NCBI GenBank assembly: GCA_048941285.1
Contig: JBHLNS010000003.1
Location: 3,914 to 67,913, forward strand
From: Promethearchaeota archaeon
GTDB lineage: Archaea > Asgardarchaeota > Lokiarchaeia > Sigyniarchaeales > SOKP01
Reading direction: 5' to 3'
DNA length: 64,000 nt
The translations under genes were made by a program, and so were the position numbers. Of the stretch, positions 2,839 to 63,884 are shown one piece after another. Below the pieces are notes generated by a model. It searched no databases, was not told where the DNA came from, and saw only the letters and a list, made by a program, of their open reading frames with translations. Position 1 is the first letter of the stretch. Every line of letters begins with the position of its first letter.

Positions 2839-4062
2839 GTGAAGAAAAGATATTTAGTGATACTCCCAATCTTAATATTAGTAGAAATTTTAAGTGTTAT
2901 TAATTTAGTAAATGCTTTTGATTGTAATCTAATATGTCTAAACACAAATAAAACCAAATATTATAGAGATGAATTTGTTAAAATAAATGCCTCTTGGATT
3001 ATGAATTACGATGATAAAACAGAAATTGCTTATACCCAAATTCATATAACGGATTTTTTTGATAATTTTGTTTGGAATTCATCAAAATACTACCAAATTG
3101 GATTACATCAAGGGAATTGGACTGTAAATTTCGAAGATTTGAATTTAAGTATAGAAAATTCATCCCATATTCTTTTTATAAAATTTTTTGTATCTTTTTT
3201 TCATATTGATACTTCAAGTACAATGTGTTATTATCTTGAAACAATAGAAATTAGAGTTATGAAAAGAAATATATCATGTGAATTAATTGGATATAAGGAT
3301 CAGATAAAAGTAGGCGAAGATTTATCTTTAATAGCTAAATTTTATAGTAAATTTTCTGAACATAATCAATTATTAATTAATCAGACAATAGACTTTATGG
3401 TTTCTTTTAATGATTTAATTATATATCAAAAAAATTATATGACAAATTCATCGGGTGTTATTCAGATTTACCTGATTTCACTCAAGCATTTAAAGCTTGG
3501 GAAGAATATTTTAACTTTTTCAATCACAAATAACAATTTATATAATGATTCAAAATTTGTATATGAAATTTACGTCGATAAATACGACTTAGTCATTGAA
3601 GTTGTTGATTTTAATAATAGAATAGAAATTGATGAAGATTTGGACATAAAATTATCTCTCCATTATAATATTAATCAATCAGATATAATTTTAGTAAATT
3701 ATAAAATATTGATAAAGATTTTTGATAATAAATCATTAACATTCATCAATGAATATTGGACTGATAAATCTGGAGTTTTAGAAATCTCAATTTCTCAAAA
3801 TTCCTTTAATTATAATCAAGAGATAAAAGATTTCATCATTAAAATTTTTTTAAATGAATCAAATTATTTTAATAATGAAACTTTAATATTGAATCTTGAT
3901 GTACATCAAAATATTTATTCAAAAATATTAAATTCATTTCAAATGAAAATTTTTTCTTTTACGTCAATTCTTATTGCCATTCTAATATTTCTCTCATATA
4001 TAATCATTAACAAAAAAAGTAAAAATGAAAAAGCGCTTACCGAATTGATCATTAGATATTAG
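2839..4062 (+). CDS. secreted, C-terminally membrane-anchored surface protein with two Ig-like repeat modules
   Basis: GTG start. N-terminal signal-like segment KKRYLVILPILILVEILSVINLVNA. Many N-x-S/T sequons. Two similar beta-rich modules (..VGEDLSLIAKF...TNSSGVIQIY.. and ..IDEDLDIKLSL...TDKSGVLEIS..). C-terminal TM segment plus a basic tail. Confidence 0.5.
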   Translation: MKKRYLVILPILILVEILSVINLVNAFDCNLICLNTNKTKYYRDEFVKINASWIMNYDDKTEIAYTQIHITDFFDNFVWNSSKYYQIGLHQGNWTVNFEDLNLSIENSSHILFIKFFVSFFHIDTSSTMCYYLETIEIRVMKRNISCELIGYKDQIKVGEDLSLIAKFYSKFSEHNQLLINQTIDFMVSFNDLIIYQKNYMTNSSGVIQIYLISLKHLKLGKNILTFSITNNNLYNDSKFVYEIYVDKYDLVIEVVDFNNRIEIDEDLDIKLSLHYNINQSDIILVNYKILIKIFDNKSLTFINEYWTDKSGVLEISISQNSFNYNQEIKDFIIKIFLNESNYFNNETLILNLDVHQNIYSKILNSFQMKIFSFTSILIAILIFLSYIIINKKSKNEKALTELIIRY

Positions 4063-44893: not shown

Positions 44894-45298
44894 ATTCAAT
44901 TTGGGTCTGACTTAGGAATCAACCAAGATGATATCGAAAAAATTAGTCCTCAAATTACTTTTATAACTTCAAATGCAGATATTGAGGCCATTGCCCTTGT
45001 ATCTCAAGAAGGTTATCAAATAGCATTTAGTGCATTACCACAATATCATGTTGATGGAGATCAATTTTGTGGGCTCTCAAGTGCCTTATTAATGACTGGA
45101 AGATCAACTATTCAGACATTATTTCAAGAAGATTTGAGTGAAATTATAGTTCGAGCACAAGATGGTTATATAGTGATTACAAATGCAGGTAGATTAGTAA
45201 TTGTGTGTGCAGGAACTATTATTGATACTTTAATGAAAACTGTGAAAGTTATGAGGATTGCTGCTAAAAATCTTTATAAAATTTTCGAAGATCGCTGA
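44894..45298 (+). CDS. Roadblock/LC7 (MglB-like) domain protein, probable non-canonical ATT start
   Basis: The frame is open from 44867. Translation ..IEAIALVSQEGYQIAFS....GDQFCGLSSALLMTGRSTI...EIIVRAQDGYIVITNAGRLVIVCAG fits the Roadblock pattern. The only in-frame ATG (45092) would remove half the domain. GGTGtGGAG lies just upstream of the ATT at 44894. Confidence 0.6.
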   Translation: MQFGSDLGINQDDIEKISPQITFITSNADIEAIALVSQEGYQIAFSALPQYHVDGDQFCGLSSALLMTGRSTIQTLFQEDLSEIIVRAQDGYIVITNAGRLVIVCAGTIIDTLMKTVKVMRIAAKNLYKIFEDR

Positions 45299-59539: not shown

Positions 59540-59612
59540 GACAGATGATGAACTTATGACAAAGTTAGCTACTTGCTCGGTAGCGATGACAATGTCGCCC
59601 CAAACTGATGTC
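59540..59612 (+). ncRNA. candidate C/D-box sRNA
   Basis: C box ATGATGA (59545-59551), C'-like GCGATGA (59583-59589) and D box CTGA (59605-59608). Flanks GACA/TGTC can pair. Internal hairpin GCTAC-ttgctcg-GTAGC. Locally GC-rich intergenic island. The D' box is degenerate. Confidence 0.3.
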
Positions 59613-59880
59613 ATAACATATTAATTCCAAAATCTGCTTCTAGTCTTTTCCAAAACCGAATTCCTTTCTCCGTTAAAAAATATTCATCATTATTTTGATT
59701 AATAAGCCCTAAATCACGCAAAACGGGTATTCTCCCATTTATACAAGAAATTGGCAAACCAGAGAATAATTTTATTGTTTCAAAATTTTTTGCCCCATTA
59801 TTAATAGCAACTAGTATTTCAATTCCCATGTAACCTAAAAGATTTTTTAAATCTTCATGAGTTTCTTCATTTTTTGGCAT
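59611..59880 (-). CDS. small winged-helix protein (89 aa)
   Basis: ..FETIKLFSGLPISCINGRIPVLRDLGLINQNNDEYFLTEKG.. (helix-turn-helix plus wing). Downstream of the 403-aa gene. Confidence 0.5.
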   Translation of the reverse strand: MPKNEETHEDLKNLLGYMGIEILVAINNGAKNFETIKLFSGLPISCINGRIPVLRDLGLINQNNDEYFLTEKGIRFWKRLEADFGINML

Positions 59881-59912: not shown

Positions 59913-61124
59913 TTACTTTTTTTTAGAATTTTTCCCTTTTTTGTTTTTTGTAGATTTACTATTTTCATTTCTATCTGTTTTATATTTATCTGCTATCACA
60001 GATTCAGTTTCTTTTGGCAGTAATTTTCTCATCCATTCAGGAAATGCTGTTGTTATCTGCAAATTGGTCTTTAAAACTATATAAGTTTCACTGTTATAAT
60101 TTAATTCTTCAATTACATCAAAATTCTTTAAAAATTCGATATTTTCCATTAATGATTCTAAAGACTTTTTAGACACTAATTTTGGTAATTTATCTTTTGA
60201 TATTAATCCATTTCTTAATTCTGATAGAACATTATACTTTTTTGGATCTGCCATAATTTGATACAAAGTGAAAGCATCTTCTTTTATTTCTTCCCGAGTT
60301 TTCTTTTCATACTCACTAAAATATTCTTGAACTTTAGGGAGGAGTAATTCAATCAATTCGGGTTTATCATCGATATATTCAATAATACTATCTGGTGGTA
60401 TTCTTTCAGCATTTACTTCTTTTACTAAAAGTACATACTTCTCTACTAAACCAATTTGATTAATAAAAATAAATTGCCGTTCATCTAAAATTTCAATAAT
60501 TTCATTAAAATCTTTTTCAGGATAATTTTCTATAAACCATTCTCTAAGCCCTTCTAATAAGATAGGACCTTCTGATAACTTCTCTAATGTCATAAATATA
60601 TGCTTGTCATTTAATAAGATAGCAATTTCTTCTTCTTCGGTTTTTTCCCTTGTATCTTCTAAAATGACCCAATATAGATTTTCTACCCAGGCTTTTATCA
60701 AAACCTCATTTTTTATTATTTTTTCCTGATCTTCTTCATCAAAATTATTTATATCATTTATATAAAATGCAGTATAAATTTCTTCATTTGATTGTAACTG
60801 CTCTGAAAACTCTGTATACAGAATCGAGATTTTTTCCTCGTCTTCTGTTGTGATTTGCTGATCGAGAATTATTGAAACCATCAACATTTCTTTATTTCCT
60901 CTTGCCCAATCTGAATGAATCTCAAAATAATAATTCAATGATTTTAGGTTTTCGAAAGAATGTGTAAAAAAACCTTCATTAAATTGCTGATCCATAATAT
61001 TAGCAATTTTTAGTGCTAATTCCCTTTCTAACATGTCTCGCGGATAAGAATAAAAGACTAATGGGCCAATTTTACGATGGAAATACGATAAAGCGATGAT
61101 GGTTTTCAATAAATGAATCTCCAA
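59913..61124 (-). CDS. 403-aa protein: longin/roadblock-like alpha/beta N-terminus plus two or three winged-helix-like modules and a basic tail
   Basis: The N-terminus alternates IIALSYF / GPLVFYSYP / helix LALKIANIMDQ / FFTHSF / LNYYFEIHS / MLMVSIILD / helix. Later come ..LEGLREWF...IIEILDERQFIFINQIGLVEKYVLL.. and ..VLSELRNGLISKDKL...FDVIEELNYNSETYIVL... The fold assignment is a guess. Confidence 0.55.
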   Translation of the reverse strand: MEIHLLKTIIALSYFHRKIGPLVFYSYPRDMLERELALKIANIMDQQFNEGFFTHSFENLKSLNYYFEIHSDWARGNKEMLMVSIILDQQITTEDEEKISILYTEFSEQLQSNEEIYTAFYINDINNFDEEDQEKIIKNEVLIKAWVENLYWVILEDTREKTEEEEIAILLNDKHIFMTLEKLSEGPILLEGLREWFIENYPEKDFNEIIEILDERQFIFINQIGLVEKYVLLVKEVNAERIPPDSIIEYIDDKPELIELLLPKVQEYFSEYEKKTREEIKEDAFTLYQIMADPKKYNVLSELRNGLISKDKLPKLVSKKSLESLMENIEFLKNFDVIEELNYNSETYIVLKTNLQITTAFPEWMRKLLPKETESVIADKYKTDRNENSKSTKNKKGKNSKKK

Positions 61125-61316: not shown

Positions 61317-62069
61317 ATGAGTCCTATAAAATTAATTGGGTTTGACCTAGATGATTGTCTTTTTGATTCAACCGGATTGTCTGAAAGAGCTAGAATTAAA
61401 GGTATTGATGCGATGATTAATTTGGGGTTAAATATAGATAAAAAAAAAGCAATTCGGATATTGAAGGAAATTGTGAAAGAATATGGTTCAAATTCATCAA
61501 AACATTATAATTATTTCATTAGAAGACTGAACCAAATGGAGGATAATATAGAATATATCTCATACAATGATCGATATAAATTTATAGCAGCAGCAGTAAT
61601 GGCTTACCATGCTGAAAAGGTTAATTCAATCACTCTTTATAATGATGTAGAAGAAAGTTTAAATAAAATCCAGGAATTGTCAATAAAAACAGCGATTGTA
61701 ACTGATGGAATTCCCATAAAACAATATGAAAAGATTTTAAGGCTTAATATCGATAAATTAATTGATTTAGTTGTTATTTCAGATGAAATTGGTATTAAAA
61801 AACCAAATCCAGAACTTTTTAATTACTGCCTAAAAAAATTTGGTGTTAAAGGGCGAGAAACAATATATGTGGGAGATCGTATCGATAAAGATATAATTCC
61901 TGCTAATTTGAATGAGATATATAGTGTATACCTTCATCGTGGAGGCAAATATGACACTTATCATTCTGAAGATATTATTCAAAGAGATATAAAACCAAAT
62001 TATGAGATTACCAATTTAAATCAACTATTTCATATAATAGAAGAGATTAACAATAAAGAAAAAATCTAG
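61317..62069 (+). CDS. HAD-superfamily hydrolase (subfamily IA-like)
   Basis: Motif I GFDLDDCLFDS, ..VTDG.., ..KKPNPELF.., and motif IV VGDRIDKDI. Confidence 0.85.
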   Translation: MSPIKLIGFDLDDCLFDSTGLSERARIKGIDAMINLGLNIDKKKAIRILKEIVKEYGSNSSKHYNYFIRRLNQMEDNIEYISYNDRYKFIAAAVMAYHAEKVNSITLYNDVEESLNKIQELSIKTAIVTDGIPIKQYEKILRLNIDKLIDLVVISDEIGIKKPNPELFNYCLKKFGVKGRETIYVGDRIDKDIIPANLNEIYSVYLHRGGKYDTYHSEDIIQRDIKPNYEITNLNQLFHIIEEINNKEKI

Positions 62070-62080
62070 TAATATTTAAA

Positions 62081-62899
62081 ATGAGAGTCGCTTGTATTCA
62101 ACCAGAATTATTTAAAAATAGAACAAAATGTTATAATGAAATAGAACAAATTCTAAAAGAATTACTAGAATCTCAGAAATATTGTGATATTATATGTCTC
62201 CCCGAAAGATGGGTTCCTTATCTTAAAAACCCAACTCAGAATTTCCAAGAACAAAGAGGTACTGATTATTCTTTTGTAAAAAATTTAGCTAAAGAATATA
62301 ACATAAAATTTATATCTGGTGGAATTTGGGAAAAGAGAACTAGTTCAAAAAAACCTGCAATCACTTGTTATTTTTTTGATGAAAATGGTGAAGAAATTGG
62401 AAGACAGGATAAAATCCACTTATATGGTTATGAACGGGAGCAATTTGAGCCAAGTAAAGAATTACAACTGTTTAAGTTTAATGATTCCTACTCTTTTGCA
62501 ATTCTTATTTGTTTTGACATGGCTTTTTTTGAAACACCTAGATTAGCGGTTGAAAGCGGGGCGGATATTTTATTTTCACCCACTCAAATAAGAAATGATG
62601 GAATGGAAAATTGGAATGTATATTTAAAAGCACGTGCTCTTGAAAATCGAGTTCCTATTGTGGCTTGTAATACTTTTGGGCATTATTTAAGAAGAAAATT
62701 TCTAGGTAACAGTAAAATTATTTCTTTTTATAGAGGAAATATATCTCCATCTAAATTAAAAATAATGGAAGGACCAAAGAGCTCAAGTGGTTTTATTATT
62801 GATGAGATAGACTTAAATTTTCCAAGAAAATTACGAAAAATTCGGTTTAAAGAAAAAATCGATAAATCAAAAATAAAAGTTAACATAGCTAATAAATAA
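62081..62899 (+). CDS. carbon-nitrogen hydrolase (nitrilase superfamily)
   Basis: E-K-C triad contexts CLPERW, DKIHLY and AILICFDMAF. Confidence 0.85.
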   Translation: MRVACIQPELFKNRTKCYNEIEQILKELLESQKYCDIICLPERWVPYLKNPTQNFQEQRGTDYSFVKNLAKEYNIKFISGGIWEKRTSSKKPAITCYFFDENGEEIGRQDKIHLYGYEREQFEPSKELQLFKFNDSYSFAILICFDMAFFETPRLAVESGADILFSPTQIRNDGMENWNVYLKARALENRVPIVACNTFGHYLRRKFLGNSKIISFYRGNISPSKLKIMEGPKSSSGFIIDEIDLNFPRKLRKIRFKEKIDKSKIKVNIANK

Positions 62900-62927: not shown

Positions 62928-63884
62928 ATGAACGAATCAAGAGATTATAAAAAAATACTATTTTGTGGTTTAGAAAATGGTGGAAAAACATCAATTTTAT
63001 TAATATTAGATAAAAAATTTAGTTTACTAACTACTGTTAAACCGACTATAAAAGCAAGAAGAACTATCCACACAAACTCATTATTAGGCACCACTATTGT
63101 CCGGTGGGATTTAGGTGGTCAAAAAGTTTATAGAAAAATATATTTAGGGGATAAGAGTAGGTATTTCACAGAAATGCAATCAATTTTTTACGTTATTGAT
63201 ATCCAAGCACCTAAAAAATTTGAAGAAGCTATAAATTTTCTTAAAGATATAGTAAACATCACCTCAGATTCGCGCCCCGATAATTTTCAACTTTTAATTT
63301 TACTTCATAAATATGATCCAGACATTAAAAACAATAGTAATATTATAACTAACGTAAAATTTTTAGAAAATGAGATTTCATCAATTATTAAAAACATTAA
63401 ATATTCTATATTGAAAACCTCGATATATGATGAACCAAGTCTGTTAAAGGCTTTTTCTGATGGTGTTTTTTATGCCACTCACAAATCTGAAATGTTCCAA
63501 ACTTTATTAAAAGATTACATGGGCAAAACTTATAATAGCTCTACGCTATTATTGGATCAGAATTGTTTTATTATTGCTAGTAGAAGTACAAATCAAGCTT
63601 ATCAAGAAATATGTGAGTCTATAGCGCCAAGGTTAACTCAAGCATTAGAAAAACTAGAAGAATGGGATATAAATACAATAGATATTGTAACAAACATAGA
63701 ATTTCCAGAAAAACATTCAGAATTTCAAAAAGAAGGCATTATTTTTCTTAGAAAATTAGATATTGGAGAAACTCGACTATACTTGGTCGCACTTTGCTTA
63801 AATAAGAAGGTCAAAATTAAATCCTATGAATATTTGCCATTATTAGCAGAAAATTTAAAAAATCTTTTAGAGAGTTTTGGTTAA
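62928..63884 (+). CDS. Rag/Gtr-family small GTPase with a C-terminal roadblock-like domain
   Basis: G1 GLENGGKTS, G3 WDLGGQ, G4 LLHKYD (the HKxD variant typical of Rag/Gtr). The segment LKTSIYDEPSLLKAFSDGV parallels the RagA TSIWDETLYKAWS region. About 140 aa of C-terminal alpha/beta sequence follow. Confidence 0.75.
   Translation: MNESRDYKKILFCGLENGGKTSILLILDKKFSLLTTVKPTIKARRTIHTNSLLGTTIVRWDLGGQKVYRKIYLGDKSRYFTEMQSIFYVIDIQAPKKFEEAINFLKDIVNITSDSRPDNFQLLILLHKYDPDIKNNSNIITNVKFLENEISSIIKNIKYSILKTSIYDEPSLLKAFSDGVFYATHKSEMFQTLLKDYMGKTYNSSTLLLDQNCFIIASRSTNQAYQEICESIAPRLTQALEKLEEWDINTIDIVTNIEFPEKHSEFQKEGIIFLRKLDIGETRLYLVALCLNKKVKIKSYEYLPLLAENLKNLLESFG

What the first reader, a model, noticed from the sequence alone, without database searches (positions are those of the whole stretch)
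62928..63884. Rag/Gtr-type GTPase (G domain plus C-terminal roadblock-like half)
The HKxD G4 variant (LLHKYD), WDLGGQ, and the post-G5 segment TSIYDEPSLLKAFS closely parallel eukaryotic RagA/Gtr1 (HKMD; TSIWDETLYKAWS). The ~140-aa C-terminal alpha/beta region has the right size for the Rag roadblock dimerisation domain. Asgard surveys have reported Gtr/Rag-family domains, so the family itself is not new. What is notable here is the local inventory: a free Roadblock protein, a longin-like plus wH protein 2 kb away, and orphan giant proteins. That makes this a good locus for asking what an archaeal Rag-like GTPase partners with. No second Rag paralog is visible before the window ends.
Basis: partly seen in the sequence, partly recalled or inferred. 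Interest (0 to 1): 0.6.

Follow-up and report, generated by a model that had tools for sequence, protein, structure and literature searches.

The report
Lokiarchaeial Rag/Gtr-type GTPase gene
This gene encodes an archaeal relative of the eukaryotic Rag/Gtr nutrient-signalling GTPases (a GTPase domain plus a roadblock tail), a family already known and crystallised from Lokiarchaeota. The new lead is that this subfamily almost always sits next to a conserved NPRL2-like "GAP-longin" gene, and is often lost while that neighbour stays.

Summary
It is a Rag/Gtr-type GTPase.

- **Family evidence:** Pfam Gtr1_RagA scores 82 bits against a cutoff of 22. The AlphaFold model (pLDDT 92.5) has a G domain plus a roadblock-type C-terminal domain. 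Foldseek aligns the full length to LokiRagO (8yl2), RagA and Gtr1. Trees separate it from Arf, Ras and MglA.
- **Selection:** it is under purifying selection (dN/dS about 0.10), and the roadblock half is the more constrained.
- **Novelty:** the family is already described and crystallised from Lokiarchaeota, so this is a new member of a known kind.
- **Paralogues:** it is the only member of its "G+roadblock, about 318 aa" subfamily in a genome with 86 small GTPases. No Rag paralogue lies on its 149-kb contig.
- **Gene context:** it is the last gene of an apparent HAD-hydrolase, CN-hydrolase, Rag unit. This unit is transcribed divergently from a highly conserved 403-aa protein (p403).
- **p403:** its N-terminal domain carries the Gly-Pro motif and an invariant arginine typical of GAP-type longins (NPRL2, FLCN, SMCR8).
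- **Distribution:** the p403/Rag neighbourhood holds in 23 of 23 assessable genomes and in three further metagenomic lineages. Many sister genera keep the block without the Rag gene, so p403 is not a dedicated partner.

The parts
62928..63884 (+). Rag/Gtr-type GTPase gene (318 aa plus stop), protein P0001
   Evidence: ORF. Pfam Gtr1_RagA 82 bits. AF2 pLDDT 92.5. Foldseek hits to LokiRagO, RagA and Gtr1. More than 120 orthologue clusters at 72-90% identity, nearly all of 318 aa.
62928..63473 (+). G domain (residues 1-182)
   Evidence: Six strands and five helices in the AF2 model. G1-G5 motifs are invariant in the orthologues. dN/dS 0.12.
62967..62993 (+). G1 / P-loop, GLENGGKTS (G14-S22)
   Evidence: G14, G19 and K20 are invariant across 93 family members.
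63105..63122 (+). G3 / switch II, WDLGGQ (W60-Q65), including the catalytic-type Gln65
   Evidence: At least 90% conserved in the 93-sequence family alignment. It aligns with WDCGGQ of Gtr1.
63306..63317 (+). G4, HKYD (H127-D130), the Rag-type HKxD variant
   Evidence: K128 is invariant, and H127 and D130 are at least 90% conserved across the family.
63417..63458 (+). G5 and following helix, TSIYDEPSLLKAFS (T164-S177)
   Evidence: Aligned by HMMER to TSIWDE-TLFKAWS of Gtr1 (8fw5_D).
63474..63881 (+). C-terminal roadblock domain (residues 183-318): helices 185-201, 223-245 and 293-317, and five strands
   Evidence: Secondary structure from the AF2 model. Full-length Foldseek alignments to RagA and Gtr1, which include their C-terminal roadblock domains. 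This is the most constrained half (dN/dS 0.065). Helix 2 and strand 3 are nearly invariant.
62081..62899 (+). Carbon-nitrogen hydrolase (nitrilase superfamily) gene, 28 nt upstream of the Rag gene; probably the same transcription unit
   Evidence: Pfam CN_hydrolase E 5.5e-28. Found immediately upstream of the Rag orthologue in every orthologue locus whose upstream flank is present, and in L016 and L062.
61317..62069 (+). HAD-type hydrolase (TIGR02253 family), first gene of the apparent unit
   Evidence: NCBIfam TIGR02253, 179 bits against a cutoff of 169.75. Conserved position.
59913..61124 (-). p403: a conserved 403-aa protein transcribed divergently 192 nt from the HAD gene. Its N-terminal domain has a Gly-Pro motif (G20-P21) and an invariant Arg75 (WARG). 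It is a candidate regulator of small GTPases.
   Evidence: 566 homologues, none with a Pfam domain. Motifs seen. The N-domain is fused to GTPase domains in paralogues. hhalign against the N-terminal domain of long Rag-like paralogues gives probability 83%. Local match to human NPRL2 residues 10-36, z = 7.9. The fold itself was not modelled here.
59611..59880 (-). Small winged-helix protein (89 aa), 32 nt downstream of p403 on the same strand
   Evidence: Pfam HTH_45 E 2.4e-7. It lies downstream of p403 on the same strand in L010-L012 (within 36-56 nt) and L016 (about 2 kb away); in L053 and L057 it lies about 2 kb from p403's start instead.

Best explanation
The gene encodes a functional member of the Rag/Gtr family of Ras-superfamily GTPases.

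**What is shown**
- It has an N-terminal G domain with all nucleotide-binding and catalytic motifs intact: P-loop GxxxxGKT, switch-I Thr40, DxxGQ with Gln65, and the Rag-type HKxD.
- It has a C-terminal roadblock domain packed against the G domain as in RagA, Gtr1 and LokiRagO.
- It belongs to a Lokiarchaeial subfamily of about 318 aa with no N-terminal extension. This subfamily is single-copy in this genome.
- The subfamily is ancestrally located downstream of a HAD-hydrolase / CN-hydrolase pair and opposite the p403 gene.

**What is inferred**
- It works as a GTP/GDP switch.
- Its roadblock domain mediates oligomerisation, most likely self-association, because no partner paralogue is linked and helix 2 plus strand 3 (the canonical roadblock dimer elements) are the most conserved part.
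- The roadblock domain also docks onto other platform proteins.
- The gene is probably co-transcribed with the two hydrolase genes.
- The most plausible candidate regulator is p403, the divergently encoded protein with a GAP-longin-like (NPRL2/FLCN-type) domain plus winged helices. p403 must also have other roles or targets, because it is fully conserved in genera that lack this Rag gene.
For: **Family membership**
- Pfam Gtr1_RagA scores 82.2 bits against Arf 66.3.
- Best PDB sequence matches are 8yl2 (E 1.8e-32) and 8zla (5e-24), then Gtr1 and RagA at about 1e-11.
- The AF2 model has pLDDT 92.5 and pTM 0.90.
- Foldseek: 8yl2, 'homo-tetrameric RagA-like small GTPase from Asgard Lokiarchaeota', E 4e-27. 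RagA 6s6a_A and 6u62_B give TM 0.74-0.80 over about 320 columns. Arf structures match the G domain only.
- G-domain tree: the Loki Rag-like clade plus eukaryotic Rag form one clade (79/98). Joining with Arf is disfavoured (p-AU 0.045). MglA is separate at 100/99.

**Subfamily and function**
- Full-length tree: the orthogroup lies inside a 100/99 subfamily clade, and all other own-genome paralogues fall outside it.
- dN/dS is about 0.10, with the roadblock half at 0.065.

**Gene context**
- Gaps are 11 nt (HAD to CN-hydrolase) and 28 nt (CN-hydrolase to Rag).
- p403 lies within 1-3 kb of this subfamily's Rag gene in 23 of 23 assessable genomes (coordinates), and in the metagenomic lineages L016/L017, L062 and L063, where Rag identity is only 35-39% by tblastn.

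**p403 as candidate regulator**
- Its N-domain is fused to an Arf-like G domain in C63:5811-6851.
- It resembles the N-terminal domain of the longin-GTPase-roadblock paralogues (hhalign probability 83%, E 8.6e-6).
- The GP motif and an arginine finger are the published signature of GAP longins, and a class of Asgard longins also carries them (PMC12290439).
Against: - No oligomer prediction or biochemistry was possible. Crystallised Lokiarchaeial relatives are tetrameric (LokiRagO) or monomeric (LokiRagM), so the oligomeric state is open.
- Monophyly with eukaryotic Rags has only moderate support (UFboot 79), and the AU test against Arf is marginal (0.045).
- Genera g2, g3, g4, g5, part of g6 and f2/g11 keep p403-HAD-CN-hydrolase, and often the Orc1-like gene, without any Rag gene.
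- p403 keeps its GP and Arg motifs and the same level of conservation in those genera.
- p403 homology to NPRL2 is not significant at database level (PDB profile E 0.37; hhalign probability 3-6%).
- The P0121 lineage of the subfamily sits in a different context.
Confidence: 0.8

Rival explanations
1. It is an Arf/Arl-family GTPase, as public annotations call it ('ADP-ribosylation factor-like protein', 'GTPase SAR1 family protein'), with an unrelated C-terminal extension.
For: Pfam Arf also scores above its cutoff (66.3 bits). Source names say ADP-ribosylation factor-like. Tran et al. note that the Rag-like class is also structurally close to Arf. The AU test rejects an Arf grouping only marginally (p = 0.045).
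Against: - Gtr1_RagA scores higher, and its match extends past the G domain to residue 225.
- G4 is HKYD, not NKxD.
- Only 6 residues precede strand 1, so there is no Arf-type N-terminal amphipathic helix.
- The C-terminal domain is a roadblock fold arranged as in RagA and Gtr1.
- Arf structures cover only about 170 columns (TMq about 0.4).
- The genome's own Arf-related proteins form a separate clade with Arf1 and Sar1.
Confidence: 0.06
2. It is an MglA-MglB-like fusion: a polarity-type GTPase covalently linked to its own roadblock GAP. On this view the roadblock domain regulates the G domain in cis and does not serve as a dimerisation platform.
For: MglB is a roadblock protein that acts on MglA (PMC9481161). 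The genome encodes several MglA-like proteins, two of them just upstream of the window. A monomeric Lokiarchaeial Rag-like protein exists (8zla).
Against: - MglA and the genome's MglA-like proteins form a distinct 100/99 clade away from this protein.
- The domain arrangement in the model matches RagA and LokiRagO (TM 0.69-0.80), not LokiRagM (TM 0.43).
- Catalytic-type Gln65 is present, as in Rags.
Confidence: 0.06
3. It is a dispensable, decaying paralogue with no specific role: one of about 14 Rag-like genes, on its way to loss.
For: The gene is absent from the otherwise intact syntenic block in genera g2-g5, part of g6 and f2/g11. The G285 copy carries an in-frame TAA. Asgard eukaryotic-signature-protein families are reported as patchy and loss-prone.
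Against: - Where the gene is present it is under strong purifying selection (dN/dS about 0.10).
- Length is fixed at 318 aa in nearly all of the 120 listed clusters.
- All catalytic motifs are invariant.
- The subfamily is retained at the same locus across lineages that share only 29-41% identity.
Confidence: 0.08

Closest known systems
LokiRagO (PDB 8yl2), 'homo-tetrameric RagA-like small GTPase from Asgard Lokiarchaeota', GTP-bound
   Same: Best sequence match (E 1.8e-32) and best structural match (Foldseek E 4e-27, TM 0.69-0.75). Same G-plus-roadblock architecture, same HKxD, DLGGQ and TxIYD motifs, and same phylum.
   Different: Only 28% identical. It belongs to a different paralogue subfamily, whose own-genome members are C35:31299 and C43:24732. 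The oligomeric state of the window protein is unknown.
Eukaryotic RagA/B and Gtr1 (for example 6s6a_A, 6u62_B, 4arz_A)
   Same: Two-domain architecture with the same relative domain arrangement (TM 0.72-0.80 over about 320 columns). HKxD G4, Rag-length switch II region, and TSIWDE-type G5. They group together in the G-domain tree.
   Different: 16-20% identity. No linked C-type partner for a heterodimer. No TORC1 or Ragulator context (TOR is not known in archaea; my own knowledge). Other paralogues in this genome (C28:9378-10577, C1:34606-35562) score higher against Gtr1 and RagA than this one does.
Longin-GTPase-roadblock Rag-like GTPases of Lokiarchaeia (described for MK-D1 in PMC10933270)
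   Same: Same G and roadblock modules. Own-genome examples are C35:27061-28563 and C35:36573-38036.
   Different: Those proteins carry an N-terminal extension of about 180 aa that this protein lacks. Here a related domain (hhalign probability 83%) is encoded separately, in the neighbouring p403 gene.
GATOR1 catalytic subunit NPRL2 and other GAP longins (FLCN, SMCR8), as a comparison for the neighbour p403
   Same: - A Gly-Pro motif before the second strand, and an arginine in the loop before the fifth strand (PMC12290439).
- p403 residues 10-36 match human NPRL2 residues 10-36 at 12 of 27 positions without gaps (z = 7.9).
- It is encoded next to a Rag-type GTPase.
   Different: - No Pfam NPR2 hit.
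- Profile-level similarity is not significant.
- No NPRL3 or DEPDC5 counterparts were looked for.
- The fold was not modelled here.
- p403 is conserved where the Rag gene is absent.

Membership tests
Rag/Gtr GTPases (Pfam PF04670 Gtr1_RagA) | Score above the curated Pfam gathering threshold | tested here: met
   82.2 bits against a cutoff of 22, E 4.7e-23, residues 9-225. This is the top family, ahead of Arf at 66.3 bits.
Rag/Gtr GTPases (Pfam PF04670 Gtr1_RagA) | Complete Ras-superfamily G domain with the HKxD variant of G4 | tested here: met
   GLENGGKTS, T40, WDLGGQ, LHKYD and TSIYD are all present. They are invariant in 40 orthologues and at least 90% conserved in 93 family members.
Rag/Gtr GTPases (Pfam PF04670 Gtr1_RagA) | C-terminal roadblock domain following the G domain | tested here: met
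   The AF2 model (pLDDT 92.5) shows alpha-beta-beta-alpha-beta-beta-beta-alpha for residues 185-317. Full-length Foldseek alignments to RagA and Gtr1 give TM 0.72-0.80 over 308-325 columns.
Rag/Gtr GTPases (Pfam PF04670 Gtr1_RagA) | Phylogenetic affinity to Rag/Gtr, as opposed to Arf, Ras or MglA | tested here: met
   The Loki Rag-like clade plus RagA, Gtr1 and RagC is one clade in the best G-domain tree (79/98). Holding it with Arf costs 26.8 lnL (p-AU 0.045). Support is moderate.
Rag/Gtr GTPases (Pfam PF04670 Gtr1_RagA) | Obligate heterodimer of an A-type and a C-type paralogue through the roadblock domains | tested here: inconclusive
   No Rag paralogue lies on the 149-kb contig. The gene is the sole member of its subfamily in the genome. 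No multimer prediction was available. Crystallised Lokiarchaeial relatives are homotetrameric or monomeric.
Rag/Gtr GTPases (Pfam PF04670 Gtr1_RagA) | Function with Ragulator/EGO and TORC1 at the lysosome or vacuole | not testable with these tools
   This needs biochemistry. Free Roadblock proteins exist in the genome, for example at 44894-45298, but linkage to this gene was not examined.
Arf/Arl/Sar family (PF00025) | NKxD G4, N-terminal amphipathic helix, single-domain protein of about 180 aa, and clustering with Arf/ArfR | tested here: not met
   G4 is HKYD. Strand 1 begins at residue 7. There is a 136-aa roadblock extension. The protein is separate from the Arf1/Sar1/own-ArfR clades.
MglA family | Clustering with bacterial or archaeal MglA | tested here: not met
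   M. xanthus MglA and four own-genome MglA-like proteins form a 100/99 clade that excludes the window protein.
LokiRagO / LokiRagM orthologue groups (PDB 8yl2; 8zla/9m28) | Orthology to one of the crystallised Lokiarchaeial proteins | tested here: not met
   Foldseek identity is 28% to 8yl2 and 18-21% to 8zla/9m28. In the tree, LokiRagO groups with own C35:31299 and C43:24732, and LokiRagM groups with own C4:21406, not with the window protein.
GAP-type 'GP-motif' longins (NPRL2/FLCN/SMCR8 class; applies to the neighbour p403, 59913-61124) | Gly-Pro motif in the loop before the second longin strand, plus a conserved arginine finger | tested here: met
   'FHRKIGPxVFYSYP' and 'WARG' are conserved in all p403 orthologues checked, in both Rag-positive and Rag-less genomes. 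The motif definition comes from PMC12290439. Structural equivalence of the arginine was not tested.
GAP-type 'GP-motif' longins (NPRL2/FLCN/SMCR8 class; applies to the neighbour p403, 59913-61124) | Longin fold and significant homology to NPRL2, FLCN or SMCR8 | tested here: inconclusive
   No Pfam hit even at E 10. PDB profile hit to the NPRL2 N-terminus has E 0.37. hhalign against vertebrate NPRL2 gives probability 3-6% over 27-29 columns. The pairwise local score has z = 7.9.

The most novel reading that the evidence does not exclude
The Rag-like GTPase and the divergently encoded p403 may be an ancestral GTPase-GAP pair: a minimal archaeal counterpart of RagA-GATOR1 (NPRL2). It would be expressed from a shared divergent promoter region together with a HAD phosphatase and a nitrilase-superfamily amidase, so that the switch reports or controls a metabolic (nitrogen or nucleotide) state. 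This would directly answer the open question of which GTPases the GP-motif Asgard longins act on (PMC12290439).
Probability: 0.15. Interest if true: 0.75.

Novelty: new member of a known kind. Interest (0 to 1): 0.4.

Why it matters
Rag/Gtr GTPases and their longin-type GAPs are the core of eukaryotic nutrient sensing. Whether Asgard archaea already paired these modules is an open question.

The gene itself is an ordinary member of a family that is described and crystallised. It is nonetheless useful for two reasons.

1. It defines a single-copy, strongly constrained subfamily that lies within 1-3 kb of an NPRL2-like GP-longin/winged-helix gene in 23 of 23 assessable genomes. This gives a concrete, cheap-to-test GTPase-regulator candidate pair.
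2. Natural presence/absence of the Rag gene inside an otherwise identical gene block, even within one genus, offers a comparative handle on what the switch does.

The result also corrects the public 'ADP-ribosylation factor-like' annotation.

Tried and rejected
1. **First AF2 run.** An alignment of 40 close orthologues (72-90% identity) gave a useless model (pLDDT 56.8). Only the 93-sequence diverse alignment worked.
2. **Literature search for PDB codes** 8yl2, 8zla and 9m28, and for 'LokiRagO/M', found no paper in the library. The names come from the PDB titles only.
4. **p403 family assignment by sequence.** Pfam at E up to 10, NCBIfam, and a PDB profile search with the full-length alignment gave nothing. 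The N-domain profile gave only a non-significant NPRL2 hit (E 0.37). hhalign against vertebrate NPRL2 was non-significant; the NPRL2 set retrieved was vertebrates only, so it had low diversity.
5. **HAD / CN-hydrolase / Rag as an obligate functional trio.** Rejected, because the two enzymes and p403 persist without the Rag gene in many genera.
6. **p403 as a dedicated partner.** Weakened for the same reason, and because its motifs and conservation level are unchanged in Rag-less genomes.
7. **N-terminal extensions of about 100 aa in other Rag-like paralogues.** These show no similarity to the p403 N-domain.
8. **Reference sequences.** They were verified as essentially identical to PDB chains before use.
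Full report
**Observation**

The window holds an uninterrupted ATG-initiated ORF at 62928-63884 (+), 318 aa.
- P-loop GLENGGKTS (14-22)
- WDLGGQ (60-65)
- LHKYD (126-130, the HKxD form of G4)
- TSIYDEPSLLKAFS (164-177)

In an alignment of 40 orthologues these positions are invariant or nearly so. In a 93-sequence alignment of more distant relatives, G14, G19, K20, T40 and K128 are invariant. W60, D61, G63, G64, Q65, H127, D130 and T164 are at least 90% conserved.

**Family assignment**

Sequence searches:
- Pfam ranks Gtr1_RagA first (82.2 bits, cutoff 22, residues 9-225), ahead of Arf (66.3) and SRPRB.
- Against PDB sequences, the best matches are two 'GTP-binding proteins', 8yl2 (E 1.8e-32) and 8zla/9m28 (5e-24). 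Next come S. pombe Gtr1 (2.7e-11), the Arf-like protein CIN4 (3.6e-11), human RagA (about 5e-11) and S. cerevisiae Gtr1 (about 1e-9). Classical Arf and Sar1 start at about 1e-7.

Structure:
- A first AlphaFold run on close orthologues failed (pLDDT 56.8).
- A run on a diverse 93-sequence alignment gave pLDDT 92.5 and pTM 0.90. It shows a Ras-like G domain followed by helix-strand-strand-helix-strand-strand-strand-helix (residues 185-317), which is the roadblock topology.
- Foldseek against PDB returned 8yl2 as the top hit (E 4e-27). Its PDB title is 'Homo Tetrameric RagA-like small GTPase from Asgard Lokiarchaeota (LokiRagO)'.
- Full-length alignments to RagA (6s6a_A, 6u62_B; TM 0.74-0.80 over about 320 columns) and Gtr1 followed.
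- The 'monomeric Rag-like' LokiRagM (8zla/9m28) matched with a different domain arrangement (TM 0.43).
- Arf proteins matched the G domain only.

**Phylogeny**

In a G-domain ML tree of 52 sequences, the window protein lies in a clade of Lokiarchaeial Rag-like proteins (80/97) that includes LokiRagO and LokiRagM. The following form separate clades:
- MglA plus four own-genome MglA-like proteins (100/99)
- Ras-like proteins (97/90)
- two Arf-related groups

The Loki Rag-like clade, eukaryotic RagA/Gtr1/RagC and three 'eukaryote-like' own paralogues are one clade in the best tree (79/98). Forcing the Loki clade to join Arf/Sar/ArfR costs 26.8 log-likelihood units (p-AU 0.045). This agrees with published clustering and trees, in which Asgard and eukaryotic RagGtr proteins form one group (10.1101/2024.02.28.582541).

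**Place among paralogues**

The genome (3.55 Mb, 29.7% GC, 101 contigs) encodes 86 Ras-superfamily ORFs by phmmer, about 14 of them Rag-like. Some paralogues (C28:9378-10577, C1:34606-35562) score better against Gtr1 and RagA than the window protein does.

In a full-length tree, the window orthogroup (genera g1 and g6-g9; 97/96) nests inside a 100/99 subfamily of G-plus-roadblock proteins of about 318 aa. All other own-genome paralogues fall outside this subfamily, including the LokiRagO-type proteins and the longin-GTPase-roadblock proteins of about 490 aa. The gene is therefore single-copy for its subfamily.

No Rag paralogue is on the 149-kb contig. Downstream lie a divergent Orc1/Cdc6-like gene, SMC, two small ORFs (284 and 275 aa; the second matches the gene called SMC_ScpB in L012, and the first sits where ScpA would be expected, though neither was scanned here) and a class-I aminoacyl-tRNA synthetase.

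**Conservation and distribution**

- More than 120 clusters at 90% identity are 72-90% identical to the query, and nearly all are 318 aa. They come from Lokiarchaeia/Promethearchaeota MAGs, where they are named 'ADP-ribosylation factor-like protein'.
- At 50% clustering the orthogroup is one cluster. The next relatives are at most 44% identical.
- dN/dS is about 0.10 overall: 0.12 in the G domain and 0.065 in the roadblock domain.
- Orthologues of at least 50% identity occur only in genus g1 and genera g6-g9 of the family.

**Gene neighbourhood**

The local order is:
- p403 (59913-61124, - strand)
- a 192-nt divergent gap
- HAD hydrolase (TIGR02253 family)
- 11-nt gap
- CN-hydrolase
- 28-nt gap
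- Rag
- about 217 nt, T-rich
- Orc1-like gene, then SMC

This order is kept in every orthologue locus whose flanks allow a check.

The same core (p403 divergent from HAD, an optional PPIase, usually CN-hydrolase, then Rag) recurs where the Rag protein is only 29-41% identical:
- metagenomic lineages L016/L017, L062 and L063
- a second family of the order, L041 and L044

Comparing coordinates, p403 lies within 1-3 kb of this subfamily's Rag gene in 23 of 23 assessable genomes. Two more are broken by contig ends. One subfamily lineage (P0121) sits elsewhere, next to a PAS histidine kinase.

Conversely, genera g2, g4 and g5 and one g6 genome (G207) keep p403-HAD-CN-hydrolase-Orc1-like with only 117-286 nt where the Rag gene would be. 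Genus g3 has an unrelated 250-aa gene there. Another g6 genome (G141) has a 786-aa gene on the opposite strand after CN-hydrolase. In f2/g11, CN-hydrolase is followed directly by PyrI.

The simplest reading is an ancestral position at this locus, followed by repeated loss.

**The neighbour p403**

Conservation:
- p403 has 566 homologues and no Pfam or NCBIfam hit. Its orthologues are 74-94% identical, slightly more conserved than the Rag protein's.
- It is present in all genera of the family and, more divergently, across the order and class.

Motifs and domain family:
- Its first roughly 165 residues contain 'FHRKIGPxVFYSYP' and an invariant 'WARG'.
- This N-domain has four paralogues in the genome. 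One (C63:5811-6851) is fused to a G domain that passes the Pfam Arf cutoff. Another (C31:31102-32094) has a C-terminal region that looks like a degenerate G domain by eye, though Pfam gave no GTPase hit for it.
- A profile of the N-domain matches the N-terminal extension of about 180 aa in the long Rag-like paralogues (hhalign probability 83%, E 8.6e-6, 101 columns). Tran et al. call this architecture longin-GTPase-roadblock.

Relation to GAP longins:
- A 2025 paper defines a Gly-Pro motif plus an arginine finger as the signature of GAP-type longins (NPRL2, FLCN, SMCR8, C9orf72). It finds the signature in a class of Asgard longins and asks whether ArfR or Rag/Gtr GTPases are their partners (PMC12290439).
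- p403 residues 10-36 align without gaps to human NPRL2 residues 10-36 (12 of 27 identical, z = 7.9 against 2000 shuffles). By eye, Arg75 sits in a segment resembling the one around NPRL2 Arg78.
- At database or profile level the similarity is not significant (E 0.37; hhalign probability 3-6%), and I could not model the fold.
- Earlier notes of this scan on p403 homologues in other genomes report an NPRL2-like predicted fold. I treat these as leads.

Evidence against a dedicated pairing:
- The GP and Arg motifs are equally conserved in Rag-less genomes.
- Within genus g6, p403 is 67-69% identical to the window copy whether or not the Rag gene is present.

So p403 cannot depend on this Rag alone.

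**Mechanism**

Shown:
- an intact G domain with catalytic-type Gln65
- a roadblock domain arranged as in RagA and LokiRagO
- strong purifying selection, strongest on roadblock helix 2 and strand 3

Inferred:
- The protein is a GTP/GDP switch that self-associates, or docks, through its roadblock domain.
- It is co-expressed with a HAD phosphatase and a nitrilase-superfamily hydrolase.
- Domain-fusion logic and very consistent synteny make p403 its most plausible regulator, possibly a GAP.

The last step is the weakest, for the reasons given above.

**Verdict**

The gene is a new member of a known and already crystallised kind. The added value is the subfamily definition, the conserved pairing with an NPRL2-like GP-longin gene, and the natural presence/absence polymorphism.

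Noticed in passing
window 59913-61124 (-) and 59611-59880 (-): A highly conserved 403-aa protein with no Pfam or NCBIfam hit. It has an N-terminal GP motif and an invariant 'WARG' arginine, as in NPRL2/FLCN-type GAP longins. An 89-aa wHTH gene follows it after 32 nt. The wHTH gene follows p403 on the same strand in the g1 loci and in L016, and lies about 2 kb from p403's start in L053/L057. Fold not modelled here.
   Followed up: partly
own genome G000:C63:5811-6851 (+) and C31:31102-32094 (-), outside the window: Paralogues of the p403 N-terminal domain carry an extra C-terminal region in one chain. In C63 it is a G domain that passes the Pfam Arf cutoff (24.1 bits against 22.3). In C31 it looks like a degenerate G domain by eye, with no Pfam GTPase hit. 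The C63 fusion is Rosetta-stone-type evidence linking this domain to small GTPases.
   Followed up: partly
own genome G000:C28:9378-10577 (-) and C1:34606-35562 (-), outside the window: Two other Rag-like paralogues score markedly better against yeast Gtr1 and human RagA/RagC (84/73/68 bits and 68/61 bits) than the window protein does (47 bits against RagA). They may be the genome's closest relatives of eukaryotic Rags.
   Followed up: no
own genome G000:C32:2102-2713 (+) and 3211-3897 (-), just before the window start: Two MglA-like GTPase genes (93 and 75 bits against M. xanthus MglA) lie immediately upstream of the window. The genome has 86 Ras-superfamily ORFs in all.
   Followed up: no
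L009:2015-3208 (C32, 130 nt beyond the window end): A divergent Orc1/Cdc6-like AAA protein (397 aa; TIGR02928 at 53 bits, far below its cutoff of 181). It lies between the Rag gene and an SMC gene followed by two small ORFs in ScpA/ScpB position, and is conserved in this position across the family whether or not the Rag gene is present.
   Followed up: partly
L041 (G285:C145:8774-9721): The Rag-like gene at the same syntenic position in this second-family genome carries one in-frame TAA. It may be a pseudogene, which would fit ongoing loss, or a sequencing error.
   Followed up: no
L054:2929-3453 (+) and L061:3742-4260 (-): In f2/g11 genomes, a protein of about 172 aa starting 'MIxKLLIFExxGICLFSK' is encoded next to PyrI, just downstream of the CN-hydrolase. 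The start looks like a small longin or roadblock-like platform protein. L016 has a 180-aa gene in the same position, but its sequence was not read.
   Followed up: no
window 44894-45298 (+): A free Roadblock/LC7 protein (Pfam E 3.9e-8), 18 kb from the Rag gene. The ORF listing listed no ORF of at least 100 aa at these coordinates. An earlier first-stage note says the frame lacks a canonical start codon.
   Followed up: partly
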